Origin: a virus
Lineage: Duplodnaviria > Heunggongvirae > Uroviricota > Caudoviricetes
Length of the DNA stretch: 28,003 bases
Strand: one strand, 5' to 3'
Virus record (IMG/VR): IMGVR_UViG_3300029068_000004
Below are positions 5,947 through 27,542 of this stretch, one piece after another (the first letter of the stretch is position 1; every line of letters starts with the position of its first letter). Position numbers and translations under genes: made by a program. The notes under the pieces were generated by a model. The model was given only the letters and a program-made list of their open reading frames with translations. It made no database searches and was not told the DNA's origin.

Positions 5947-6645
5947 TTACTGCGAAAGTTTGTTAATGGAAAGGAAGCCGCCAAAGTTGCCGACATTATT
6001 GCGGAACTTACAGCCACTCAGGCATTTGCTGCATTTATCCTTCGTGATTTCGGATGTCGGCTGGTCATATTCATCCGCGACCGCCGGACCGTGATAACCG
6101 CACTCATCACCGCGATAGGTCCAGGTGCAGGTATTAGCAAGCATGATGCGCCCCGGAAAAACAGCGCCGTCCGTTTCCGTCGGCGTGGACAGTACAAAGG
6201 AGGCACTGACCGCGCTCAGTTCGCTGCACTGCTCAATACGCCAGCGGCTGATCACCTCCTGCTCCGGATCGGCGTCACTGTTTCCGTTGACGAAGTTCAC
6301 CGCATCCAGAAAACGGGCGTAAACCTTACGCCTGACCACCGTTCCGCCGACCAGACTCTGCAGGTCTTCCGCCATCCCGGTGACCATGCCGTGCAGATTA
6401 GAGACTTTCAGCGTTGGCCTTGCACTGGCACCTTTGCCGTTCATCTCAAATCCACTCCCCTGAATGGGATAGGCCTGATACTGCCGACTCTGCCAGGTGA
6501 CAGACTCTCCTTTCTCGTTCTGCTCATTGCAGAAAAAGTAGCGATCCCCGCCTACCTCGGTCAGGTCGATTTCCCAGAGCACCACGCTGGCCGACTGCTC
6601 CGCACGAATGCATTCATTCAGCGTTTCCTGTTGTATGTCCTGCAT
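5947..6645 (-). CDS. L: Minor tail protein L
   Basis: 232-aa ORF, same length as lambda L and N-terminus [33 protein letters not shown] familiar from lambda L; M stop and L start overlap (TGATG). Confidence 0.9.
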   Translation of the reverse strand: MQDIQQETLNECIRAEQSASVVLWEIDLTEVGGDRYFFCNEQNEKGESVTWQSRQYQAYPIQGSGFEMNGKGASARPTLKVSNLHGMVTGMAEDLQSLVGGTVVRRKVYARFLDAVNFVNGNSDADPEQEVISRWRIEQCSELSAVSASFVLSTPTETDGAVFPGRIMLANTCTWTYRGDECGYHGPAVADEYDQPTSEITKDKCSKCLSGCKFRNNVGNFGGFLSINKLSQ

Positions 6646-20942: not shown

Positions 20943-21194
20943 TTAGTCCTGATTTTTATCCACCCTGAGTAGTTCGCGCAGAGCAAAGGCATCCCCTTTT
21001 CTGGCAAGCTTAAACAATGCCGCTCGTAACTCGGCTTCACCTTTCGCTCTGCCCTTACGGATGGCCGCATAAAAATCTGTCATTGCTTCCCGATTTTCTT
21101 TCAGTCGGTTCAGATCAACATCCAGAACGTCAGCGATTTGTTGTGCAGTCATCCGGCACGCTGCCAGAGACTCGACTTTCGAATACGGAATCAT
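20943..21194 (-). CDS. Small HTH DNA-binding protein (function unknown)
   Basis: 83-aa ORF with an HTH-like segment MTAQQIADVLDVDLNRLKEN; its stop lies 3 nt upstream of the small terminase ATG. Confidence 0.45.
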   Translation of the reverse strand: MIPYSKVESLAACRMTAQQIADVLDVDLNRLKENREAMTDFYAAIRKGRAKGEAELRAALFKLARKGDAFALRELLRVDKNQD

Positions 21195-22062
21195 TTGTCA
21201 CCCCTATTGATATGCAGGGTGTCTTCTTCCTGTATTTTTCGTGAAGGATTTTTACTGCAGCGTTGTTCCAGGTGACCTGATGGTGAATGCGTTTATGGCT
21301 GGCACCCATCAGTGAGATTTTTACGCACGACGGCGCATACATGACGGAGTAAAAACTTTTAACGTAGGTTCCGGAATCCAGATACAGCTCGGTCATTCCG
21401 CCGCTGTTTTTCTGCGTCTGTTTCTGCCCTAACTGGACAGCACCGATCGTCATAAACAATTCACCACAGCGACCGAGATTCGTGTACGTATTCACATCCT
21501 CGTTAATGCGCCCCATGAATGAGAACGGTCGATCAACCGAACAGATAAAGCTGTTCATTGCCTTGCGTTTCACCCACGAAGCATGGCCGCCATTGTCACC
21601 AAGAAAATCCCCTCCCTGCGACATAGCGATGGAAAGAGCAGGTATTGATTCGTAGTACGCCAGCATTTCAGAAAGGATCGCATCCAGTTTCCTTATCGGA
21701 AAATAGGCCTGGTCATAGTTGCGATCCACCCGAAACTGGAACTCGTGATAATCATCATCGAGCTGAATGAAGTATTTACACCCGACCAGTTTTGCCTGGT
21801 CGAAACAGGCATTACGGGCGTAAAAAATTGAGCGGCGGTCACAGAAATTATCGGCTTCGTCAAAACGACTGGCGATATCGGCTTTGGAAAACACCAGCAC
21901 CTGTTCACCAAATTCAGCCATGTACTGATGCCGTGTCTTATCTTCATCATCAACAACGATAAAAATTTTCCCGGTATAGCCAGCACGACGCAACGTCCGG
22001 TAAGTCAGAACTTTGTCCGGTCGCCCGTGAGTCAGAATAAAGGCGCAAAAATCATCACGCAT
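21130..22062 (-). CDS. Hypothetical enzyme with GT-A (family-2-like) glycosyltransferase sequence pattern
   Basis: 310-aa ORF with ATG at 22062. Sequence pattern CAFILTHGRP ... KIFIVVDDED ... YARNACFDQAKLVGCKYFIQLDDDY resembles the GT-A N-terminal strand plus ARN...G.Y...LD.DD (DXD) signature; no C-terminal transmembrane segment. Confidence 0.4.
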   Translation of the reverse strand: MRDDFCAFILTHGRPDKVLTYRTLRRAGYTGKIFIVVDDEDKTRHQYMAEFGEQVLVFSKADIASRFDEADNFCDRRSIFYARNACFDQAKLVGCKYFIQLDDDYHEFQFRVDRNYDQAYFPIRKLDAILSEMLAYYESIPALSIAMSQGGDFLGDNGGHASWVKRKAMNSFICSVDRPFSFMGRINEDVNTYTNLGRCGELFMTIGAVQLGQKQTQKNSGGMTELYLDSGTYVKSFYSVMYAPSCVKISLMGASHKRIHHQVTWNNAAVKILHEKYRKKTPCISIGVTNDSVFESRVSGSVPDDCTTNR

Positions 22063-22846
22063 ATTCCTCCTCCTCACCACCATGCATGATCTCCACCATG
22101 CGCTGCGTCATCCGGACAAATCCATTTTCAATAGCCTGCTGATAATCAATGATCACCAGCGCCGACTCCTCGAAAAAACACTGAATTTCAGCGGGGGCGT
22201 GAGCGTAATAGTCCGCAATTCTGCTGAAATTAAACACCGTGTGACGTTCTGCCGCACACAGGAGGAATTTCTCAATATCAGGCTCAAGGGACGCCGAACG
22301 TATCCGGCTGATCAGCTCCTGAGTTTTCGTATCGTCGTACAGTTCACTGATATCCGGTTTACCGCCCGACGGCTCATAAACAGGCGTATCAATTTTCGTC
22401 GTATACGGCTCCTCCTCATTTCCTGTACCGGGCAAAACATCCGTCAACAGTTCATCAATTTCTGTCGGGATGAAGCCTGTCAGGGAGACATCAAAATCAG
22501 CATTGATTAGGTCCGACAGCTCCATCCGCAACAGATCTTCATCCCAGCCAGCATTCATCGGCAGGCGATTATCTGCCAGGCGGTACGCCTTTTTCTGCTC
22601 ATCCGTCAGGCCAGACAGAACAATGACCGGAACAGAATCCATTTTGAGCATTTCAGCCGCCATAACACGACCGTGACCCGCAATAATTTCGCCCTTTTCG
22701 TCAATCAGCACCGGATTAGTCCAGCCGAATTGCTTAATACTTTCTACCAGTTGTGCCACCTGCTCAGGGCTGTGCGTCCTGGCGTTGTGCGCATACGGTG
22801 ACAATTCTTGTAATGGGCGATAGACTATCTTTAATTTCTCGCTCAT
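22055..22846 (-). CDS. ParB-like (ParB/Srx N-terminal domain) protein with a C-terminal domain of unknown function
   Basis: N-terminus ...LSPYAHNARTHSPEQVAQLVESIKQFGWTNPVLIDEKGEIIAGHGRVMAAEMLKMDSVPVIVL matches the ParB N-domain pattern including GHxR. Ends with the acidic tail GGEEEEYA, whose codons (GAGGAGGAGGAA) form the Shine-Dalgarno for the downstream gene. Confidence 0.7.
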   Translation of the reverse strand: MSEKLKIVYRPLQELSPYAHNARTHSPEQVAQLVESIKQFGWTNPVLIDEKGEIIAGHGRVMAAEMLKMDSVPVIVLSGLTDEQKKAYRLADNRLPMNAGWDEDLLRMELSDLINADFDVSLTGFIPTEIDELLTDVLPGTGNEEEPYTTKIDTPVYEPSGGKPDISELYDDTKTQELISRIRSASLEPDIEKFLLCAAERHTVFNFSRIADYYAHAPAEIQCFFEESALVIIDYQQAIENGFVRMTQRMVEIMHGGEEEEYA

Positions 22847-22983: not shown

Positions 22984-24441
22984 TTAGGAGCGCCAAAAAA
23001 AACCTGAAAACAATATAATAACAGGATAAATTTCAAGGCGACCAAGAATCATAGCTATGCACATTAAACATTTTGCAATGTCATTAAGCACTCCGAATGA
23101 CGATGCAGTAGCCCCAAAACCTAATCCCATATTATTAATACATGCAGCCACTGTTGCAAATGATGTAAGAAAATCATATCCCATACCATTTAACACCAGT
23201 ATAAAAAACACCGTGAAGAGAGTATAAAGAAAAAAGAAACTCCATACAGACCTCATTACACGATCTGTAACTATCTTCCCTCCTACATTTACACTCAACA
23301 ACGCTCTGGGATGAGAAAGCTGATTTATCTCGTGTTTGCTTTGTTTGAAAAGTATAAGAAATCGAAGTGACTTAATTCCACCACAAGTTGAACCTATACA
23401 TCCCCCAAAGAAACTTGACAACAGCAAAAACACTATCGTGTGCGTGGGCCAACTTGCATAATCCTGCGTAGCTAAACCATTATCAGTGAGCATGGAGCTG
23501 GCAAGAAAAAACGAATGAATAAAACTTCCATGCAAGTCATACATACCTATATGCCAGACCTGGAAAGAGGTAACAATGATCACCCCTAAGGCTATTAACA
23601 GAAAGAAACGAAGTTCAATATCTCTGATTAAAGGTTTTATCGTTTTCCTGCTAATAACAATATACCAAAGAGTGAAGTTGAAAGCCGATAGCAGGGAAAA
23701 AGAACCAGCCACCAGCTCAACCAAATAGTTATTAAAATATCCGATACTCTCGCTATGAGTTGAGAAACCACCAAGCGAAACTGTGGAAATCCCGTGACAA
23801 ATAGCATCAAACAAAGGCATTCCTGCAAGTCTATAACAGACAATACAAGCAATACCTAATAAAGAATAAGTTATCCACAGTGTCCGTGACGTATCGGCCA
23901 GGCGGGGAGTGAGTTTGTCATCCTTAAATGGCCCCGGCATTTCTGACTGATAAAGCTTTGCACCACCAATACCCAATAATGGCAATACAGCAACCGCCAG
24001 AACAATAACTCCTAAACCACCTATAAAATTTAACTGTGACCGATAGTACAAATATGCCCGAGGTAATGAACTAACATCATCAATTACAGTTGCTCCTGTT
24101 GTTGTTATTCCAGAAACCCCTTCAAACAGAGCATCAATGAACGTTAAATTAAGTTCTGAGTCAATCCATAAAGGGAATGCACTAATAACAGAAAACAAAA
24201 TCCAAAACATTACAATTATAATAAACCCATCACGGGTACGTAATTGAATGCCAGATTTCTTAGTTGTATACCACGCTCCGCCACCAATGCAAAAAAATAT
24301 AACGAAAGTTATAAAGAAAACAAACAGGCTTTTTTCTTTATAAAACAATGCTACAACCATTGGTGGCAACATTGAAAGACTATAGAGCCAAACCAGGAAC
24401 CCACACATATGAGTAACAACTCTTACATGAGATGTATTCAT
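22984..24441 (-). CDS. trkG: TrkH/TrkG-family potassium uptake protein (moron)
   Basis: Polytopic membrane protein; from ATG 24441 it reads MNTSHVRVVTHMCGFLVWLYSL..., as E. coli Rac-prophage TrkG (485 aa) from memory. A TTG at 24459 with an AAGGTGG Shine-Dalgarno is an alternative start. Visibly AT-rich versus neighbours. Confidence 0.9.
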   Translation of the reverse strand: MNTSHVRVVTHMCGFLVWLYSLSMLPPMVVALFYKEKSLFVFFITFVIFFCIGGGAWYTTKKSGIQLRTRDGFIIIVMFWILFSVISAFPLWIDSELNLTFIDALFEGVSGITTTGATVIDDVSSLPRAYLYYRSQLNFIGGLGVIVLAVAVLPLLGIGGAKLYQSEMPGPFKDDKLTPRLADTSRTLWITYSLLGIACIVCYRLAGMPLFDAICHGISTVSLGGFSTHSESIGYFNNYLVELVAGSFSLLSAFNFTLWYIVISRKTIKPLIRDIELRFFLLIALGVIIVTSFQVWHIGMYDLHGSFIHSFFLASSMLTDNGLATQDYASWPTHTIVFLLLSSFFGGCIGSTCGGIKSLRFLILFKQSKHEINQLSHPRALLSVNVGGKIVTDRVMRSVWSFFFLYTLFTVFFILVLNGMGYDFLTSFATVAACINNMGLGFGATASSFGVLNDIAKCLMCIAMILGRLEIYPVIILFSGFFWRS

Positions 24442-24578
24442 ATCTAAATATTCTTTCAATTATAACCACCTTGCTGCAATATTATGATTATACTGTATAA
24501 AATTTAACTCCTCTTAGATCTTACTTCACTGTTCCTTATGAAACAATCATCAAAATGAATCATATTGTAGTTAAGATT

Positions 24579-25519: not shown

Positions 25520-25861
25520 TTACTCCTTATGGGCACCGAACTTGTTACCGATGACCCTCATTGCCGCACCACGAATAGCATCAACACCAATCAGCCCCAC
25601 CCCACCACCAATGGCAACAGAAAGTGATTTAGGCCATCCGACATACTCAAGCGCGGATGCAAAGGTCAGCGTCAGAGCACCACAAAGCAGAATCTCAAGC
25701 GTTTTTCGTTTCCAGCCGCCGCCACCGCCAAAATAGGCAATGCGCAAACCAGCCATAATAATTGACATAACCACTGCACCCAGCGGCGTATCTCCACGCC
25801 ACCAACTTTGTAAGAGTTCCAGTAAGTCAGGCCAGGAATGAGGGGCATTGTGCATTTTCAT
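25520..25861 (-). CDS. Holin (three predicted transmembrane segments) with M-K-M dual-start motif
   Basis: Immediately upstream of the endolysin; ATG-AAA-ATG at 25861-25853 preceded by a GGAGGTG Shine-Dalgarno; three hydrophobic stretches; not lambda S in sequence. Confidence 0.65.
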   Translation of the reverse strand: MKMHNAPHSWPDLLELLQSWWRGDTPLGAVVMSIIMAGLRIAYFGGGGGWKRKTLEILLCGALTLTFASALEYVGWPKSLSVAIGGGVGLIGVDAIRGAAMRVIGNKFGAHKE

Positions 25862-25956
25862 AAGCCTCACCTCCGAGAGTTCGGATGGTGCTAAGTGTAA
25901 GATTCAGGCTCTCAGGCTTGCTAACAAGAAGTCGAGGATGTTTCCGGAGCCTAACA

Positions 25957-25984
25957 ACGAAAAAGCCCCGGGACATGCCGGGGT
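25957..25984 (-). terminator. Rho-independent terminator-like hairpin upstream of the holin gene, downstream of the moron
   Basis: Minus strand CCCCGG-CAUGUC-CCGGGG followed by CUUUUUCGUUGUU. Confidence 0.55.
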
Positions 25985-26078
25985 CAGATGGAGTGCCAGA
26001 TTAAGCTTCTGGCGGTATATACTCGTGTTTGATATCGTTAAATCGCCAAAAGTAACAATTCAAACAAAGAGGATTTTT

Positions 26079-26240
26079 ATGTCTGAAAAAAACAAGCCAC
26101 AAGATGAAAATAAACCTCAGCAACCCGTGGCACCAAAACCAACTCCAACACAAAGTACTACAGACTTTGCTACACGTCGTGTTTTTGTTGGAGATTCTGC
26201 CGACTCAGTCATTGAACATATAAAAAAACAGCCGAGATAA
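26079..26240 (+). CDS. Small hypothetical protein (53 aa), convergent with and overlapping the 3' end of the membrane-protein gene
   Basis: Plus-strand ATG at 26079 with an AAGAGGA Shine-Dalgarno 5 nt upstream; MSEKNKPQDENKPQQPVAPKPTPTQSTTDFATRRVFVGDSADSVIEHIKKQPR; hydrophilic and proline-rich. Confidence 0.35.
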   Translation: MSEKNKPQDENKPQQPVAPKPTPTQSTTDFATRRVFVGDSADSVIEHIKKQPR

Positions 26241-26778
26241 ACATCGCCGCTACCGGAGCAAGGATGGTATACATCCTTGCTTTATCGAGACTCGTGCGGA
26301 TTTTCTCATTTTCCAACAGTAACTCTCTTGCTGTATCACTCAAGTCAACAAGGCGATACCTTCGTATAAGCGGCAATAACTTATCAGGTCCTAAATATCC
26401 TGCATCAGCGAATATTTTAAAGCTCGAGGGCTCCATATCCTTATATTTTTCATGATATAGATGATCAGGAGGGGCATTGATCAGGCCCCTAACCTTCACA
26501 GATAAACCAGTACATATCAAGTAAATGGCGCACCATGTCCATAGTAATGTAAATGTGGTAATTCCGGCGGTGAGAAAATCGAAATTAGTTTTCTGTGTCA
26601 GCAATAAAAAAGATGAACCAATTCCAACAATCTGAATGTTCAGAAGTTTGTATCCATTCTCAACATTGGTTTTGTTAGAAAGATGAATCTCTCGTATCGT
26701 CTCTTCCCCTTGTTTTTCAAGATAATCGACGAGCTCATCATCTACTCCTAAAAAATAATCTTTAGGTAGTTCTCTCAT
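26209..26778 (-). CDS. Hypothetical membrane protein (189 aa, about three predicted transmembrane segments), moron
   Basis: ATG at 26778 with a GGAGGTG Shine-Dalgarno; hydrophobic segments IQIVGIGSSFLLL, AGITTFTLLWTWCAIYLICTGL and YTILAPVAAMFISAVFLYV; AT-rich; I recognise no family. Confidence 0.6.
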   Translation of the reverse strand: MRELPKDYFLGVDDELVDYLEKQGEETIREIHLSNKTNVENGYKLLNIQIVGIGSSFLLLTQKTNFDFLTAGITTFTLLWTWCAIYLICTGLSVKVRGLINAPPDHLYHEKYKDMEPSSFKIFADAGYLGPDKLLPLIRRYRLVDLSDTARELLLENEKIRTSLDKARMYTILAPVAAMFISAVFLYVQ

Positions 26779-26806
26779 CTCACCTCCACATCCTGTACTG
26801 AAAACA

Positions 26807-26815
26807 ATTTTACCA
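26807..26815 (-). promoter_or_regulatory. Candidate extended -10 promoter (TGGTAAAAT) for the moron gene
   Basis: Minus strand TGGTAAAAT about 30 nt upstream of the ATG at 26778; no good -35, as is usual for extended -10 promoters. Confidence 0.3.
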
Positions 26816-26887
26816 GAATGTCTCGATTCTAGGTATTCCGCCAGGAATCTCGTTCCAGAAATGAAACATCAGGTTCGCCAGTACCAG

Positions 26888-26916
26888 AAACAACAAAACC
26901 CGCTCAATGGCGGGTT
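26888..26916 (-). terminator. tR'-like intrinsic terminator downstream of the late promoter
   Basis: Minus strand AACCCGC-CAUUGA-GCGGGUU followed by UUGUUGUUU, about 60-80 nt downstream of the PR'-like promoter. Confidence 0.5.
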
Positions 26917-26974
26917 CTGGTAAAGTTCATGCGCTTGGTTCGCCTCGCGATACAGCTTTGCGAAGCATACCGGA

Positions 26975-27003
26975 ATTGAAGCAGTTTATGCGTAAAAAAT
27001 CAA
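26975..27003 (-). promoter_or_regulatory. PR'-like late promoter candidate immediately downstream of Q
   Basis: Minus strand TTGATT - 17 nt - TTCAAT; the -35 overlaps the Q stop codon, the expected position of a lambdoid late promoter. Confidence 0.4.
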
Positions 27004-27542
27004 GCTATTTTTTGAGCAAATGATTCTCGCATGGGAATATATAGGGCATACTCAGCAACAGCCAACCAATTAGCAATTCGCTTTTCGCATGTGCTAAAAC
27101 ACCACTCAGGATGTGCATCATTTAGCAATTCAGCCATTTTGCGCTTAGTCATCCCCCGTCCTTCATACCGTTGCCGGAGGACACTAATCAATCCAGGATG
27201 CTCTGCCAGCACCTCACTTATGACTCTATCAATACATAACGCCTCTGCATCAGTACAATGCGCCAGCCAGGTCTTTTGCTTGCCATTGATCATCTCTCGC
27301 AAAAACGCTTCCAGCTCAGGTTTCTCTATTCCCGCTTTTTTCATCCTGCGCAGGGCTTCATTGACGGCTGTTTTCGTCAATTTTTTGGATGCCAGCAACT
27401 GGTTAAACATATTTCCCGTCTTACCGCCGCCAATATACGACCAGCGCCCCCACATGCGCAGTTTTCCCTGAATCCAGACACTTTCCAGCGTGGTGAGACG
27501 AAGGTGTTCCCCGCTTTTGCCTGTATTTGTTGGGTAAATCAT
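27000..27542 (-). CDS. Putative late antiterminator Q-like protein
   Basis: 180 aa from ATG 27542 (overlaps the upstream stop as ATGA); sits directly upstream of the PR'-like promoter/terminator and lysis genes; contains a Cys pair cluster (C...C...C..C). Assigned mainly by synteny. Confidence 0.5.
   Translation of the reverse strand: MIYPTNTGKSGEHLRLTTLESVWIQGKLRMWGRWSYIGGGKTGNMFNQLLASKKLTKTAVNEALRRMKKAGIEKPELEAFLREMINGKQKTWLAHCTDAEALCIDRVISEVLAEHPGLISVLRQRYEGRGMTKRKMAELLNDAHPEWCFSTCEKRIANWLAVAEYALYIPMRESFAQKIA

What the first reader, a model, noticed from the sequence alone, without database searches (positions are those of the whole stretch)
25957..26916. AT-rich moron between the Q/late promoter and the holin: 3-TM membrane protein with a convergent overlapping small ORF, own promoter and terminator
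In lambdoid phages the slot between PR'/tR' and the holin is a classic cargo site (Shiga toxin genes sit there). Here it holds a 189-aa protein with three hydrophobic segments and a soluble middle domain, of no family I recognise. It is preceded by an extended -10 element (TGGTAAAAT) and a strong Shine-Dalgarno, and followed by an intrinsic terminator (25957-25984). A convergent 53-aa proline-rich ORF with a good Shine-Dalgarno overlaps its 3' end by 32 nt, and overlapping convergent pairs sometimes act as antisense-regulated toxin or exclusion modules. The region is visibly AT-rich, indicating horizontal acquisition. A lysogen-expressed small membrane protein here is a plausible superinfection-exclusion, abortive-infection or host-fitness factor.
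Basis: partly seen in the sequence, partly recalled or inferred. Interest (0 to 1): 0.7.

Follow-up and report, generated by a model that had tools for sequence, protein, structure and literature searches.

The report
Convergent membrane-protein/small-protein prophage cassette
Between the late-gene switch and the lysis genes of an E. coli Rac-like prophage sits a conserved, mobile two-gene cassette of unknown function: a three-pass membrane protein and a small basic protein encoded tail-to-tail on opposite strands, whose layout suggests a toxin/antidote-type switch tied to the phage life cycle.

Summary
The 189-aa ORF (26209-26778, -), the convergent 53-aa ORF (26079-26240, +; 32-nt 3' overlap), the flanking terminators, the -10 element and the lower G+C are all present.

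Both ORFs are real genes and form one unit. Every full-length homologue of the large protein examined (about 49-99% identity, Enterobacterales prophages) has the same convergent, 3'-overlapping small ORF. So do two remote homologues (~30% identity), one of them outside a lambdoid late region.

The small ORF is under purifying selection. It encodes a basic, Pro/Gln-rich, non-hydrophobic protein.

The large protein is all-helical with three hydrophobic segments, probably N-in/C-out. It matches no Pfam, NCBIfam or PADLOC family and no specific fold.

The cassette lies after a tR'-like terminator, next to Q proteins of 3-4 families and holins of 6 families, so it is a mobile moron.

The small gene is driven by a near-invariant extended -10 promoter and 5'UTR block. 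In other lambdoid phages the same block drives unrelated genes on the strand opposite the late genes.

Function is untested. My best guess (~0.4) is a membrane toxin with a small-protein antidote, wired as an antisense "noncontiguous operon".

Verdict: new variant of a known kind, moderate interest.

The parts
27000..27542 (-). Q-type late antiterminator gene (context, upstream neighbour)
   Evidence: Pfam DUF1133 at 5e-109, plus Phage_antitermQ. The PGAP start corresponds to 27542.
27036..27065 (-). Candidate late promoter PR' (TTGGCT-18-TATATT) inside the 3' end of Q. Uncertain.
   Evidence: Consensus scan only. It was not verified by comparison with related loci.
26894..26919 (-). tR'-like intrinsic terminator at the left border of the cassette
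   Evidence: 10-bp stem plus T-run. A terminator occupies the same position upstream of the large gene in nearly all 25 loci. In lambda-Q-type loci it directly follows the lambda PR' pause motif AACGATGGGTTAAT.
26807..26815 (-). Promoter-like element of the large gene: TGGTAAAAT (-10 hexamer TAAAAT at 26812..26807)
   Evidence: Read from the sequence. A TAAAAT, TAAGAT or TAGTAT hexamer is conserved about 28-35 nt before the ATG in at least 20 of 25 diverged loci, while its flanks vary.
26209..26778 (-). Gene for the 189-aa inner-membrane protein. It has an acidic N-terminal cytoplasmic helix, a TM1-TM2 hairpin, a basic helical middle domain and a C-terminal TM3.
   Evidence: ORF. 104 homologues, nearly all 189 aa. 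26 invariant residues. AF2 pLDDT 83, all helical. Hydropathy and charge pattern. phrog_11870, function unknown.
26079..26240 (+). Convergent gene for a 53-aa basic, Pro/Gln-rich hydrophilic protein. Its last 32 nt overlap the 3' end of the large gene.
   Evidence: ORF. A partner ORF is present in every locus with a full-length large gene. Conserved pattern MSxxNKP...KPxP...DFxxxRxxVGDSA...KK. Median dN/dS 0.32 and no in-frame stops. SD in all loci. phrog_14506.
26030..26056 (+). Promoter and start of the 5'UTR of the small gene: extended -10 TGATATCGT (26030-26038), then the invariant TAAATCGCCAAAAGTAAC
   Evidence: The invariant columns of alignment A4 fall exactly on TG, T1, A2 and T6 of an extended -10. 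The same block precedes unrelated opposite-strand genes in other lambdoid phages.
25995..26013 (.). Conserved small hairpin GCCAGA-N7-TCTGGC between the small-gene promoter and the terminator. Role unknown.
   Evidence: Present with a variable loop in most loci. One compensatory arm variant was seen, GCCAGT/ACTGGC.
25960..25983 (-). Intrinsic terminator at the right border of the cassette, pointing toward the holin
   Evidence: 6-bp all-GC stem plus CTTTTT. A hairpin plus T-run of varying sequence lies at the same place in related loci.
25520..25861 (-). Lambda-S-family holin with an MKM dual start (context, downstream neighbour)
   Evidence: Pfam Phage_holin_3_1 at 2e-27. PGAP annotation. The sequence ATGAAAATG is visible.

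Best explanation
What it is.
- The region is a self-contained, horizontally mobile two-gene cassette.
- It sits just downstream of the Q-dependent late promoter and terminator, and just upstream of the lysis genes, in a Rac-like lambdoid prophage.
- Gene 1 runs in the late-gene direction. It encodes a 189-aa inner-membrane protein.
  - Inferred topology is N-in and C-out.
  - It has a strongly acidic N-terminal cytoplasmic helix that runs into TM1.
  - It has a tight TM1-TM2 hairpin.
  - It has a basic helical cytoplasmic middle domain that runs into TM3.
- Gene 2 is convergent and overlaps gene 1 at the 3' end. It encodes a 53-aa basic, Pro/Gln-rich, probably disordered cytoplasmic protein.
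- Each gene has its own promoter element. An intrinsic terminator facing the lysis genes bounds the cassette on each side.

How it most likely works (inferred, not shown).
- The pair behaves as a membrane-acting toxin or effector with a small protein antidote, wired as an antisense 'noncontiguous operon'.
- In the lysogen the small gene's constitutive extended -10 promoter fires head-on into the large gene. This lowers large-gene expression by polymerase collision and by duplex RNA.
- The small basic protein also binds and neutralises whatever large protein is made. A plausible binding site is the acidic cytoplasmic helix.
- The right-hand terminator stops large-gene transcripts from reaching the holin.
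- Small-gene output falls in two situations:
  - when Q-modified, terminator-resistant polymerase sweeps through from PR';
  - when an infecting phage shuts off host transcription and the small protein decays.
- The membrane protein then acts on the inner membrane by permeabilising or depolarising it.
- The outcome would be either abortive infection or exclusion of other phages, or help with the prophage's own late-stage killing and lysis.
For: Shown:
- The two genes are inseparable. A convergent 47-56-aa ORF overlapping the large gene's 3' end by 20-35 nt is present in every locus with a full-length homologue, down to about 49% identity. These include Serratia, Yersinia and Trabulsiella genomes and the phage deposited as Actinobacillus phage vB_Apl-pPE4.
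- Two remote homologues (~30% identity) have a convergent Pro/Gln-rich small ORF with a basic tail. One of them lies in a non-lambdoid early region next to Sipho_Gp157.
- The small ORF is translated-type sequence: median dN/dS 0.32, no in-frame stops and a conserved SD.
- The charges are complementary. The large protein's N-terminal segment is net -7, and the small protein is net +2 to +6. The small protein has no hydrophobic stretch.
- Each gene has a conserved promoter element of its own, and terminators lie at both borders.
- Late transcription must cross the cassette. It lies between Q and the holin on the same strand. In lambda-Q-type loci the lambda PR' pause motif and a terminator sit immediately upstream of it.
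- The cassette is mobile. It is found next to Q proteins of 3-4 Pfam families and holins of 6 families.
- Natural knock-outs lean toward the large gene. The large gene is broken with the small gene intact in 5 unique cassette sequences, which I group into 3 lineages (L043/L044, L045/L046 and L008). The small gene is clearly broken with the large gene intact in 1 case, L029, a 1-nt deletion in an A7 run. A second flagged case, L195, could not be checked because the comparison gave no alignment.

Precedents:
- Tha/Ith. [quoted passage not shown]
- SpoIISA/SpoIISB. A 3-TM membrane toxin with a cytoplasmic domain is neutralised by a basic, hydrophilic, natively disordered 56-aa protein (PMC3057836).
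Against: - There is no experimental or transcriptomic evidence here for expression, toxicity, binding or any phage phenotype.
- No homology to any toxin, holin, exclusion or defence family was found.
- A co-fold of the two proteins could not be run.
- The conserved -10 in front of the large gene means that gene is probably also meant to be expressed in lysogens. That fits a two-component lysogenic function as well as it fits a toxin/antidote pair.
- The small gene's promoter block is shared with unrelated genes. Antisense placement may therefore be a general property of this genomic slot, not something specific to this pair.
- The knock-out counts are too small to be significant.
- One distant homologue, in L212, has a convergent small ORF that is acidic and unrelated.
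Confidence: 0.4

Rival explanations
1. Lysis accessory. The 189-aa protein is a late-expressed membrane protein that tunes holin triggering, lysis timing or membrane shut-down in the phage's own lytic cycle. The small gene only prevents leaky expression or activity in the lysogen.
For: In the lambdoid loci it usually lies just upstream of a lysis cassette, on the late strand and downstream of PR'/tR'. Its membrane helices are rich in Ser, Thr, Gly and aromatic residues, as in holins. Placing the small gene antisense fits a design that is off in the lysogen and on late in infection.
Against: - It sits next to six unrelated holin families, so it has no specific holin partner.
- This phage already has a complete lysis set, including a dual-start (MKM) holin/antiholin.
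- Only about 4% of complete E. coli genomes carry the cassette.
- A remote homologue pair lies in an early region far from any lysis genes.
- The large gene has its own conserved -10 after tR', which a purely late gene would not need.
- No holin-family match was found, and both size and inferred topology differ from class I holins.
Confidence: 0.2
2. Two-component lysogenic-conversion function without toxicity. Both proteins are made in the lysogen and act together, for example to block DNA entry of superinfecting phages or to alter an envelope function. The convergent overlap is only compaction, or a means of shutting the function off during the phage's own lytic growth.
For: Both genes carry their own conserved promoter elements and are insulated by terminators. 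The slot holds many other opposite-strand cargo genes under the same promoter. Small inner-membrane proteins encoded by prophages are classic exclusion factors (established knowledge).
Against: No similarity to any defence model in PADLOC or to any Pfam-A family, a library that to my knowledge includes a SieB model. The convergent 3' overlap is kept even in remote homologues in other genomic contexts, which argues that the antisense arrangement matters to the pair itself. A 50-aa, apparently disordered basic protein looks more like a binder or inhibitor than a partner in a stable machine.
Confidence: 0.2
3. Type I-like antisense system. The 'small gene' is really a regulatory antisense RNA against the large gene's mRNA, and its ORF is incidental.
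For: Convergent genes overlapping at their 3' ends are the layout of the Bacillus prophage type I pairs TxpA/RatA and BsrG/SR4 (from my own knowledge; not checked here). No terminator lies between the two genes, so the transcripts must overlap.
Against: The ORF stays open in 25 diverged sequences, has a conserved SD and start, has a conserved C-terminal peptide motif and shows dN/dS of about 0.3. The putative toxin is 189 aa, not a peptide of under 60 aa. A dual role, with antisense RNA and protein acting together, is not excluded and is part of the best explanation.
Confidence: 0.05
4. Not functional. The ORFs are chance or decaying ORFs in an AT-rich spacer.
For: No annotated function. The promoter and terminator scan counts are no higher than in shuffled sequence.
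Against: 104 homologues of constant length. 99 clusters among 1.84 billion representative proteins. Purifying selection on the small ORF. A confident AF2 model.
Confidence: 0.01

Closest known systems
Tha/Ith 'noncontiguous operon' of Staphylococcus aureus prophages (PMC11087260)
   Same: A small gene with its own constitutive promoter lies antisense to, and overlaps, a prophage transcription unit. It encodes a protein that antagonises the neighbouring prophage effector. [quoted passage not shown]
   Different: The polarity is reversed. Here the antisense gene lies in the late operon, so it should be on in lysogeny and off late in infection. In Tha/Ith it lies in the cI operon. The effector here is a 3-TM membrane protein, not a HEPN nuclease. 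There is no sequence relationship. Antagonism between the two proteins is only inferred here.
SpoIISA/SpoIISB toxin-antitoxin of Bacillus (PMC3057836)
   Same: A membrane protein with three transmembrane segments and a cytoplasmic part is paired with a basic, hydrophilic protein of about 55 aa (natively disordered in the case of SpoIISB).
   Different: No Pfam-A family, a library that to my knowledge includes SpoIISA/SpoIISB models, matches. In SpoIISA the TM segments are all N-terminal and are followed by a globular cytoplasmic domain; here the order is helix-TM1-TM2-helical domain-TM3 and the protein is all helical. The spoIIS genes are co-directional, not convergent. The host phylum differs.
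Type I toxin-antitoxin pairs with convergent 3'-overlapping genes in Bacillus prophages (TxpA/RatA, BsrG/SR4; from my own knowledge)
   Same: Convergent genes overlap at their 3' ends on prophages, with a membrane-targeted product on one strand.
   Different: Those toxins are hydrophobic peptides of under 60 aa and the antitoxin is a non-coding RNA. Here the membrane protein is 189 aa and the opposite-strand gene encodes a conserved protein.
Cargo ('moron') genes in the Q-PR'-tR' to holin slot of lambdoid phages, such as stx in Stx phages
   Same: Same genomic slot, lower G+C, own promoter and terminator, and mosaic association with different Q and lysis modules.
   Different: The proteins are unrelated. 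The slot is used here by a convergent gene pair, one member of which is driven by a portable conserved promoter on the strand opposite the late genes.
Prophage exclusion and abortive-infection membrane proteins (lambda RexB with RexA, lambda/P22 SieB, HK97 gp15)
   Same: Small prophage-encoded inner-membrane proteins expressed in lysogens. RexAB pairs a membrane component with a cytoplasmic one.
   Different: No sequence or profile similarity. Gene order, location and partner size all differ.

Membership tests
Phage holins / antiholins (Pfam Phage_holin_* families; class I lambda S type) | Sequence match to a holin family | tested here: not met
   No Pfam family matches the window protein at E <= 1, and no holin family matches any of 36 homologues at E <= 0.1. 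The neighbouring true holin scores 2e-27 in the same search.
Phage holins / antiholins (class I) | About 95-110 aa, three TM segments, N-out/C-in, with a charged C-terminal cytoplasmic tail | tested here: not met
   The protein is 189 aa. It has a 43-aa acidic N-terminal segment and a 75-aa middle domain with 13 K+R. TM3 lies at the extreme C-terminus with no tail. Inferred topology is N-in/C-out. Topology comes from hydropathy and the positive-inside rule only.
SpoIISA/SpoIISB membrane toxin-antitoxin | Homology to the SpoIISA toxin or the SpoIISB antitoxin | tested here: not met
SpoIISA/SpoIISB membrane toxin-antitoxin | A 3-TM membrane protein with a cytoplasmic part, paired with a basic hydrophilic protein of about 55 aa (natively disordered in SpoIISB) | tested here: met
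   Three hydrophobic segments plus cytoplasmic helices. The partner is 47-56 aa in most loci, net charge +2 to +6, 12% Pro and 10% Gln, with a maximum 15-aa hydropathy of 0.58. SpoIISA/B properties are taken from PMC3057836. This is a resemblance in make-up, not evidence of homology.
SpoIISA/SpoIISB membrane toxin-antitoxin | Toxicity of the membrane protein, neutralised by direct binding of the small protein | not testable with these tools
No experimental data are available.
Type I toxin-antitoxin (convergent, 3'-overlapping) | Convergent genes overlapping at their 3' ends | tested here: met
   The overlap is 32 nt here and 20-35 nt in all related loci.
Type I toxin-antitoxin (convergent, 3'-overlapping) | The toxin is a small hydrophobic peptide and the antitoxin is a non-coding RNA | tested here: not met
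   The membrane protein is 189 aa. The opposite-strand gene is protein-coding by dN/dS, open-frame and SD conservation.
Type II toxin-antitoxin | The two genes are co-transcribed as an operon, and the antitoxin has a DNA-binding domain that autoregulates it | tested here: not met
   The genes are convergent and have separate promoter elements. The small protein has no recognisable domain.
Noncontiguous-operon effector/inhibitor pairs (Tha/Ith type) | A small antisense gene with its own promoter, nested in and overlapping a prophage operon | tested here: met
   The small gene lies on the strand opposite Q, the large gene and the lysis genes. It has a conserved extended -10 (TGnTAYnGT) and overlaps the large gene. 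Promoter activity itself is inferred, not measured.
Noncontiguous-operon effector/inhibitor pairs (Tha/Ith type) | The small protein inhibits the effector, and the expression states switch on induction | not testable with these tools
   This needs RNA-seq of the lysogen with and without induction, plus genetic tests.
Noncontiguous-operon effector/inhibitor pairs (Tha/Ith type) | A HEPN-domain effector homologous to Tha | tested here: not met
   No Pfam or PADLOC match. The protein is an all-helical membrane protein.
Known anti-phage defence systems (PADLOC-DB v2.0.0) | A match of either protein to a defence-system model | tested here: not met
   0 families at E <= 1 for both window proteins, and 0 at E <= 0.1 for 36 homologues of the large protein. 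The library dates from 2023, so later systems are not covered.
Lambdoid moron in the Q-holin slot | Lies between Q/PR'/tR' and the lysis genes, has its own transcription signals, differs in composition and associates mosaically with its neighbours | tested here: met

The most novel reading that the evidence does not exclude
The cassette is the first example of a new class of prophage module: a 3-TM membrane effector held in check by a small disordered protein. The ratio of the two is set by head-on transcription against the Q-dependent late operon, so the effector fires only when late transcription starts or when host transcription collapses. More broadly, lambdoid phages would possess a dedicated 'antisense cargo slot' in front of the lysis genes, served by a portable, near-invariant extended -10 promoter and 5'UTR plus a hairpin and terminator. 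That slot would switch lysogeny-expressed cargo off automatically at the onset of late transcription. Its cargo includes this small gene, Zn-ribbon proteins, GhoS-like and DUF2441 proteins, and others.
Probability: 0.25. Interest if true: 0.75.

Novelty: new variant of a known kind. Interest (0 to 1): 0.55.

Why it matters
- About 4% of complete E. coli genomes (223 of 5,426), and prophages of many other Enterobacterales, carry this uncharacterised pair at the same site where Shiga toxin genes sit. It is therefore common accessory cargo of unknown effect on host or phage.
- If the toxin/antidote-plus-antisense model holds, it would add a new membrane-acting effector family. It would also be a Gram-negative, late-operon counterpart of the Tha/Ith principle, in which a prophage couples a dangerous function to its own life cycle.
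- The portable promoter block is of separate interest. It marks a recombination-prone cargo slot that could be mined systematically for lysogeny-expressed genes.

Tried and rejected
- The afdb50 fold library was not on the machine.

Searches that found nothing:
- Rfam at permissive E-values found no RNA family over 25700-27200.
- A PDB sequence-profile search gave nothing below E = 0.09.
- A literature search for the RefSeq accession, and two searches for defence cargo between Q and the holin, found nothing on this cassette.
- The block is absent from the DLP12 and Qin late regions of E. coli K-12.
- A raw lower-case megablast query returned nothing and was repeated with a locus reference.
- Remote homologues show no informative domain fusions. 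The longer ones look like mis-called starts, and one is a low-complexity repeat.

Readings of the conserved block 26030-26056 that I considered and dropped:
- *A sigma-E promoter (GGAACTT-16-TCAAA) on the phage strand.* The AAC core of the -35 is not conserved, while the 'spacer' is invariant.
- *Sigma-28 or sigma-54 promoters.* The hexamers do not fit.
- *The late promoter PR' with a qut site, because it contains AACGAT.* The block is the same next to different Q families. In lambda-Q-type loci the true PR'-like pause motif lies upstream of the cassette.
- *A lambda CI operator, because of ACCGCCAGA.* There is no symmetric half-site.
- *A -35 element in the left hairpin arm.* Its spacing to the -10 varies with loop length.

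Other:
- Strand assignment of the small hairpin from G-U versus A-C mismatches was inconclusive.
Full report
**Context**

The window is a lambdoid prophage of the Rac type, with its phage genes on the minus strand.
- Identical DNA in E. coli EC50 lies between trkG, tfaR and ydaV.
- In the direction of late transcription, the order around the finding is:
  - a DUF1364 (RusA-position) gene;
  - Q, matching DUF1133 and Phage_antitermQ;
  - a terminator at 26919..26894;
  - the 189-aa ORF;
  - the convergent 53-aa ORF;
  - a terminator at 25983..25966;
  - a lambda-S-family holin with an MKM dual start;
  - a GH24 endolysin and Rz/Rz1.
- Further on come trkG, a ParB_N/TAGT pair, terminase, portal, coat, tape measure and J.
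- Four nearly identical phage records in GenBank carry the cassette.

**Observation**

- G+C falls from about 0.50 to 0.38-0.42.
- The consensus scans are not significant on their own: 2 promoter-like and 2 terminator-like sites, no more than in shuffled sequence.
- The case for the signals therefore rests on comparison with related loci.

**Both ORFs are genes**

*The large protein.*
- It has 104 homologues at E <= 1e-3, nearly all exactly 189 aa, at 42-99% identity. They come from Escherichia, Klebsiella, Citrobacter, Serratia, Yersinia, Proteus, Providencia, Morganella, Pantoea and others.
- An alignment of 36 homologues has 26 invariant residues.
- A profile search of 1.84 billion representative proteins finds only 99 clusters, all about 160-200 aa and without informative fusions.

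*The small ORF.*
- I located the large gene in 90 related loci from genomes and viral contigs and looked downstream on the other strand.
- Every locus with a full-length large gene has a 47-56-aa ORF that overlaps the large gene's 3' end by 20-35 nt.
- The two apparent exceptions are an N in the sequence and a 1-nt deletion in an A7 run.
- The small proteins share the pattern MSxxNKPxxExKPQ..KPxP..DF(A/S/T)xxRxxVGDSA(D/E)..(R/K)KK.
- All have a Shine-Dalgarno sequence 5-9 nt before the conserved ATG.
- Across 25 sequences there are no in-frame stops, against 36 and 118 in the other two frames. Median pairwise dN/dS outside the overlap is 0.32.

*Remote pairs.*
- P0129, in a contig whose neighbours carry Sipho_Gp157 and AAA_24 rather than Q or holin, has a convergent 47-aa partner: MSNKPDNKPVKPVENKTREAPKQPSPPQKKFGEPVVFAMDEAIKNKK.
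- P0160 has a convergent Pro/Gln-rich ORF with a basic tail that runs off the contig end.
- A third remote homologue has a convergent 51-aa ORF that is acidic and unrelated.
- The pair is therefore a unit, and its convergent layout belongs to the pair itself, not only to the lambdoid slot.

**The proteins**

*The large protein.*
- AlphaFold2 with the 36-sequence alignment gives pLDDT 83 and pTM 0.65. The model is all helical, with long helices at 14-62, 68-92 and 134-188 and short helices in between.
- The hydrophobic segments are at about 44-62, 69-92 and 168-187.
- The 6-residue loop between the first two segments carries about 1 K/R.
- The 75-residue middle domain carries 13 K/R, two of them within 8 residues of each flanking TM segment.
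- The N-terminal 43 residues are net -7.
- By the positive-inside rule the topology is N-in, with the middle domain in the cytoplasm and the C-terminus out. This is an inference; no topology predictor was available.

*The small protein.*
- It is net +2 to +6.
- It is 13% Lys, 12% Pro, 11% Ser and 10% Gln.
- It has no hydrophobic window.

*Database matches.*
- Neither protein matches Pfam, NCBIfam or PADLOC. This holds for the window proteins and for all 36 homologues of the large protein.
- PHROGs places them in the unannotated families 11870 and 14506.
- Fold searches return only BAR-type and other long-helix bundles without significance.
- A PDB sequence-profile search finds nothing.

**Position and mobility**

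- Among 22 non-redundant loci, the nearest same-strand upstream gene of at least 100 aa is a Q antiterminator in 14.
  - Seven are lambda-type Antiterm.
  - Four are DUF1133/Phage_antitermQ.
  - Three are Phage_antiter_Q.
  - The rest are other cargo, such as ORF6N, KilA-N, Rha, a methylase and a ParE-like protein.
- Among the first downstream genes are holins of six Pfam families and several endolysin types.
- Upstream of the large gene, almost every locus has a hairpin plus T-run, then 20-30 variable bases, then a conserved (C)AGGTAAAAT about 30 nt before the ATG.
- In loci with a lambda-type Q, the terminator is preceded by AACGATGGGTTAAT. This is identical to the pause-inducing stretch just downstream of lambda PR'. 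That this stretch induces the pause is from my own knowledge.
- The cassette therefore sits immediately after tR', and Q-modified polymerase has to cross it to reach the lysis genes.
- In E. coli, 223 of 5,426 complete genomes carry at least 80% of the 1.1-kb region.

**The small gene's promoter is a portable element**

- Aligning the 150 nt upstream of the small-gene ATG shows a non-coding block far better conserved than either protein. In the window it reads TGATATCGT TAAATCGCCAAAAGTAAC (26030-26056, + strand).
- This alignment was assembled through homology of the large gene, not through the motif. Its invariant columns fall on TG, T1, A2 and T6 of an extended -10 element (TGnTAYnGT) and on the following TAAA..GC..A.A..AAC.
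- I read this as an extended -10 promoter with a start near 26045 and a 5'UTR of about 34 nt.
- Three loci (L062, L082, L086) lack the block and have a different upstream sequence, in which I read a TTGGAT-16-TCTAAT promoter by eye.
  - About half of the hits have the cassette.
  - About 40 with enough flanking sequence do not.
  - A few are chance matches inside tail-fibre-like genes.
- In the lambdoid loci without the cassette the block has the same setting. On one side are the SD and ATG of a gene on the strand opposite the late genes. On the other side are the small hairpin and a terminator facing the holin or tRNA genes.
- The genes attached to the block are unrelated to one another:
  - a 67-aa Zn-ribbon protein;
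  - 94-99-aa proteins, one of which has a sub-threshold GhoS match;
  - 160-180-aa DUF2441 proteins;
  - several 150-165-aa proteins with no family.
- Several of these again converge on, and in some cases overlap, a small same-strand gene.
- One locus (L114) keeps the block and the first 23 codons of the small gene but has no large gene, which looks like a deletion scar.
- The block is therefore a shared promoter and translation-start module, and possibly a recombination linker, for an antisense cargo slot in front of the lysis genes.
- It is not the late promoter. It does not vary with the Q family, and the PR'-like motif lies upstream of the cassette.

**Mechanism**

What is shown:
- The two genes form an obligate, convergent, overlapping pair.
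- Each gene has its own conserved promoter element.
- The pair is insulated by terminators and lies in the path of late transcription.
- One product is a polytopic membrane protein with an acidic cytoplasmic helix.
- The other product is a small, basic, hydrophilic protein.

What is inferred:
- With no terminator between the genes, transcripts from the two promoters must overlap and the polymerases must collide.
- The layout matches the 'noncontiguous operon' described for Tha/Ith in S. aureus prophages. There a small antisense gene with a constitutive promoter encodes the inhibitor of the prophage's own effector, and the two expression states exclude each other (PMC11087260).
- The make-up of the pair matches SpoIISA/SpoIISB: a 3-TM toxin with a cytoplasmic part, and a basic, natively disordered 56-aa antitoxin that binds that part (PMC3057836).
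- I therefore favour a membrane effector/antidote pair, at about 0.4. The small gene would dominate in the lysogen. The large protein would be released when Q-dependent transcription overruns the small promoter, or when host transcription stops.
- Whether the output is abortive infection or exclusion, or a contribution to the phage's own late killing, cannot be decided from sequence.
- The tally of natural knock-outs points weakly the same way, but the numbers are small. The large gene is broken with the small gene intact in 5 unique sequences, which I group into 3 lineages. The small gene is clearly broken with the large gene intact in one.

**Rivals**

- *A pure lysis accessory.* This is made less likely by several points:
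  - the six different holin partners;
  - the complete lysis set already present, with a dual-start holin;
  - the rarity of the cassette;
  - the remote pair found in an early region;
  - the large gene's own -10.
- *A non-toxic two-component lysogenic function.* This remains quite possible.
- *A non-coding antisense RNA.* The coding signatures argue against it.
- *Chance ORFs.* Excluded by conservation.

**Novelty and score**

- Neither protein family has a characterised member.
- The general kinds are known: moron cargo in the Q-holin slot, membrane toxin with a small-protein antidote, and an antisense gene nested in a prophage operon.
- This combination and its polarity are not described in the material I could search.
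- I rate it a new variant of a known kind, with interest 0.55.
- The portable antisense-slot promoter is the most unexpected by-product of the analysis.

Noticed in passing
window 26030-26056 (+); loci L095, L100, L103/L150, L125, L138, L148, L149, L151, L176: A near-invariant extended -10 promoter and 5'UTR block (TGnTAYnGT TAAATCGCCAAAAGTAAC) is shared by many lambdoid phages. In each it drives a different gene on the strand opposite the late genes, directly upstream of a hairpin, a terminator and the lysis (or tRNA) genes. It appears to mark a general antisense cargo slot and possibly a recombination linker.
   Followed up: partly
L099, L138, L154, L170 (about 80-800 nt upstream of the block); L150, L176: Other convergent gene pairs, some of them overlapping, occupy the same slot. 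One type pairs a 160-165-aa DUF2441-like opposite-strand protein (L099, L154, L170), or in L138 a 157-aa protein of no family, with a 71-118-aa same-strand protein (motif GQHLHSLFAGIDEERPKTF). Another pairs a 94-99-aa protein (one member has a sub-threshold GhoS match, E = 9e-4) with a 73-76-aa protein (MKFYELSSDSRSQAK...). None matches PADLOC.
   Followed up: partly
window 25995-26013: A small hairpin, GCCAGA-N7-TCTGGC, lies between the small-gene promoter and the terminator. It is conserved, with variable loop length and at least one compensatory arm variant. Its function and the strand on which it acts are unknown.
   Followed up: partly
window 26086-26092; locus L029: There is an A7 run at codons 3-5 of the small gene. 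One otherwise identical locus has A6, which frameshifts the small ORF while the large gene stays intact. This could be a sequencing error or a slippage-prone on/off site.
   Followed up: partly
locus L114 (block at 6586 in phage orientation): The promoter block is followed by only the first 23 codons of a small-gene homologue, and there is no large gene. It looks like a deletion scar of the cassette.
   Followed up: no
window 21130-22846 (-): Two adjacent genes, just upstream of the terminase small subunit, encode a ParB_N-domain protein (263 aa) and a TET-associated glycosyltransferase (TAGT, 317 aa, E = 1.5e-34). This may be a DNA-modification module. In strain EC50 the corresponding ynaK is annotated as a truncated pseudogene.
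   Followed up: no
window 22984-24459 (-): The trkG potassium-transporter gene (TrkH family) sits in a stretch of 0.32-0.41 G+C directly after Rz/Rz1. This is the classic Rac-prophage cargo gene.
   Followed up: no
window 26920-26975 (-); loci L002, L079: The leader TCAATTCCGGTATGCTTCGCAAAGCTGTA..., upstream of the tR'-like terminator, is shared with loci in which the upstream gene is not Q (an ORF6N gene in L002). The left border of the cassette may therefore include this leader. Its role is unknown.
   Followed up: no
E. coli K-12 Qin prophage, locus L214 4806-4976: ynfU, annotated as a putative zinc-binding protein (56 aa), occupies the equivalent opposite-strand position immediately upstream of the holin gene essQ. 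It lacks the conserved promoter block. In DLP12 the opposite-strand gene at this position is nmpC.
   Followed up: partly
window 25855-25861 (-): The holin has the lambda-type dual start, Met-Lys-Met (ATGAAAATG). The phage therefore already encodes the standard holin/antiholin pair.
   Followed up: no
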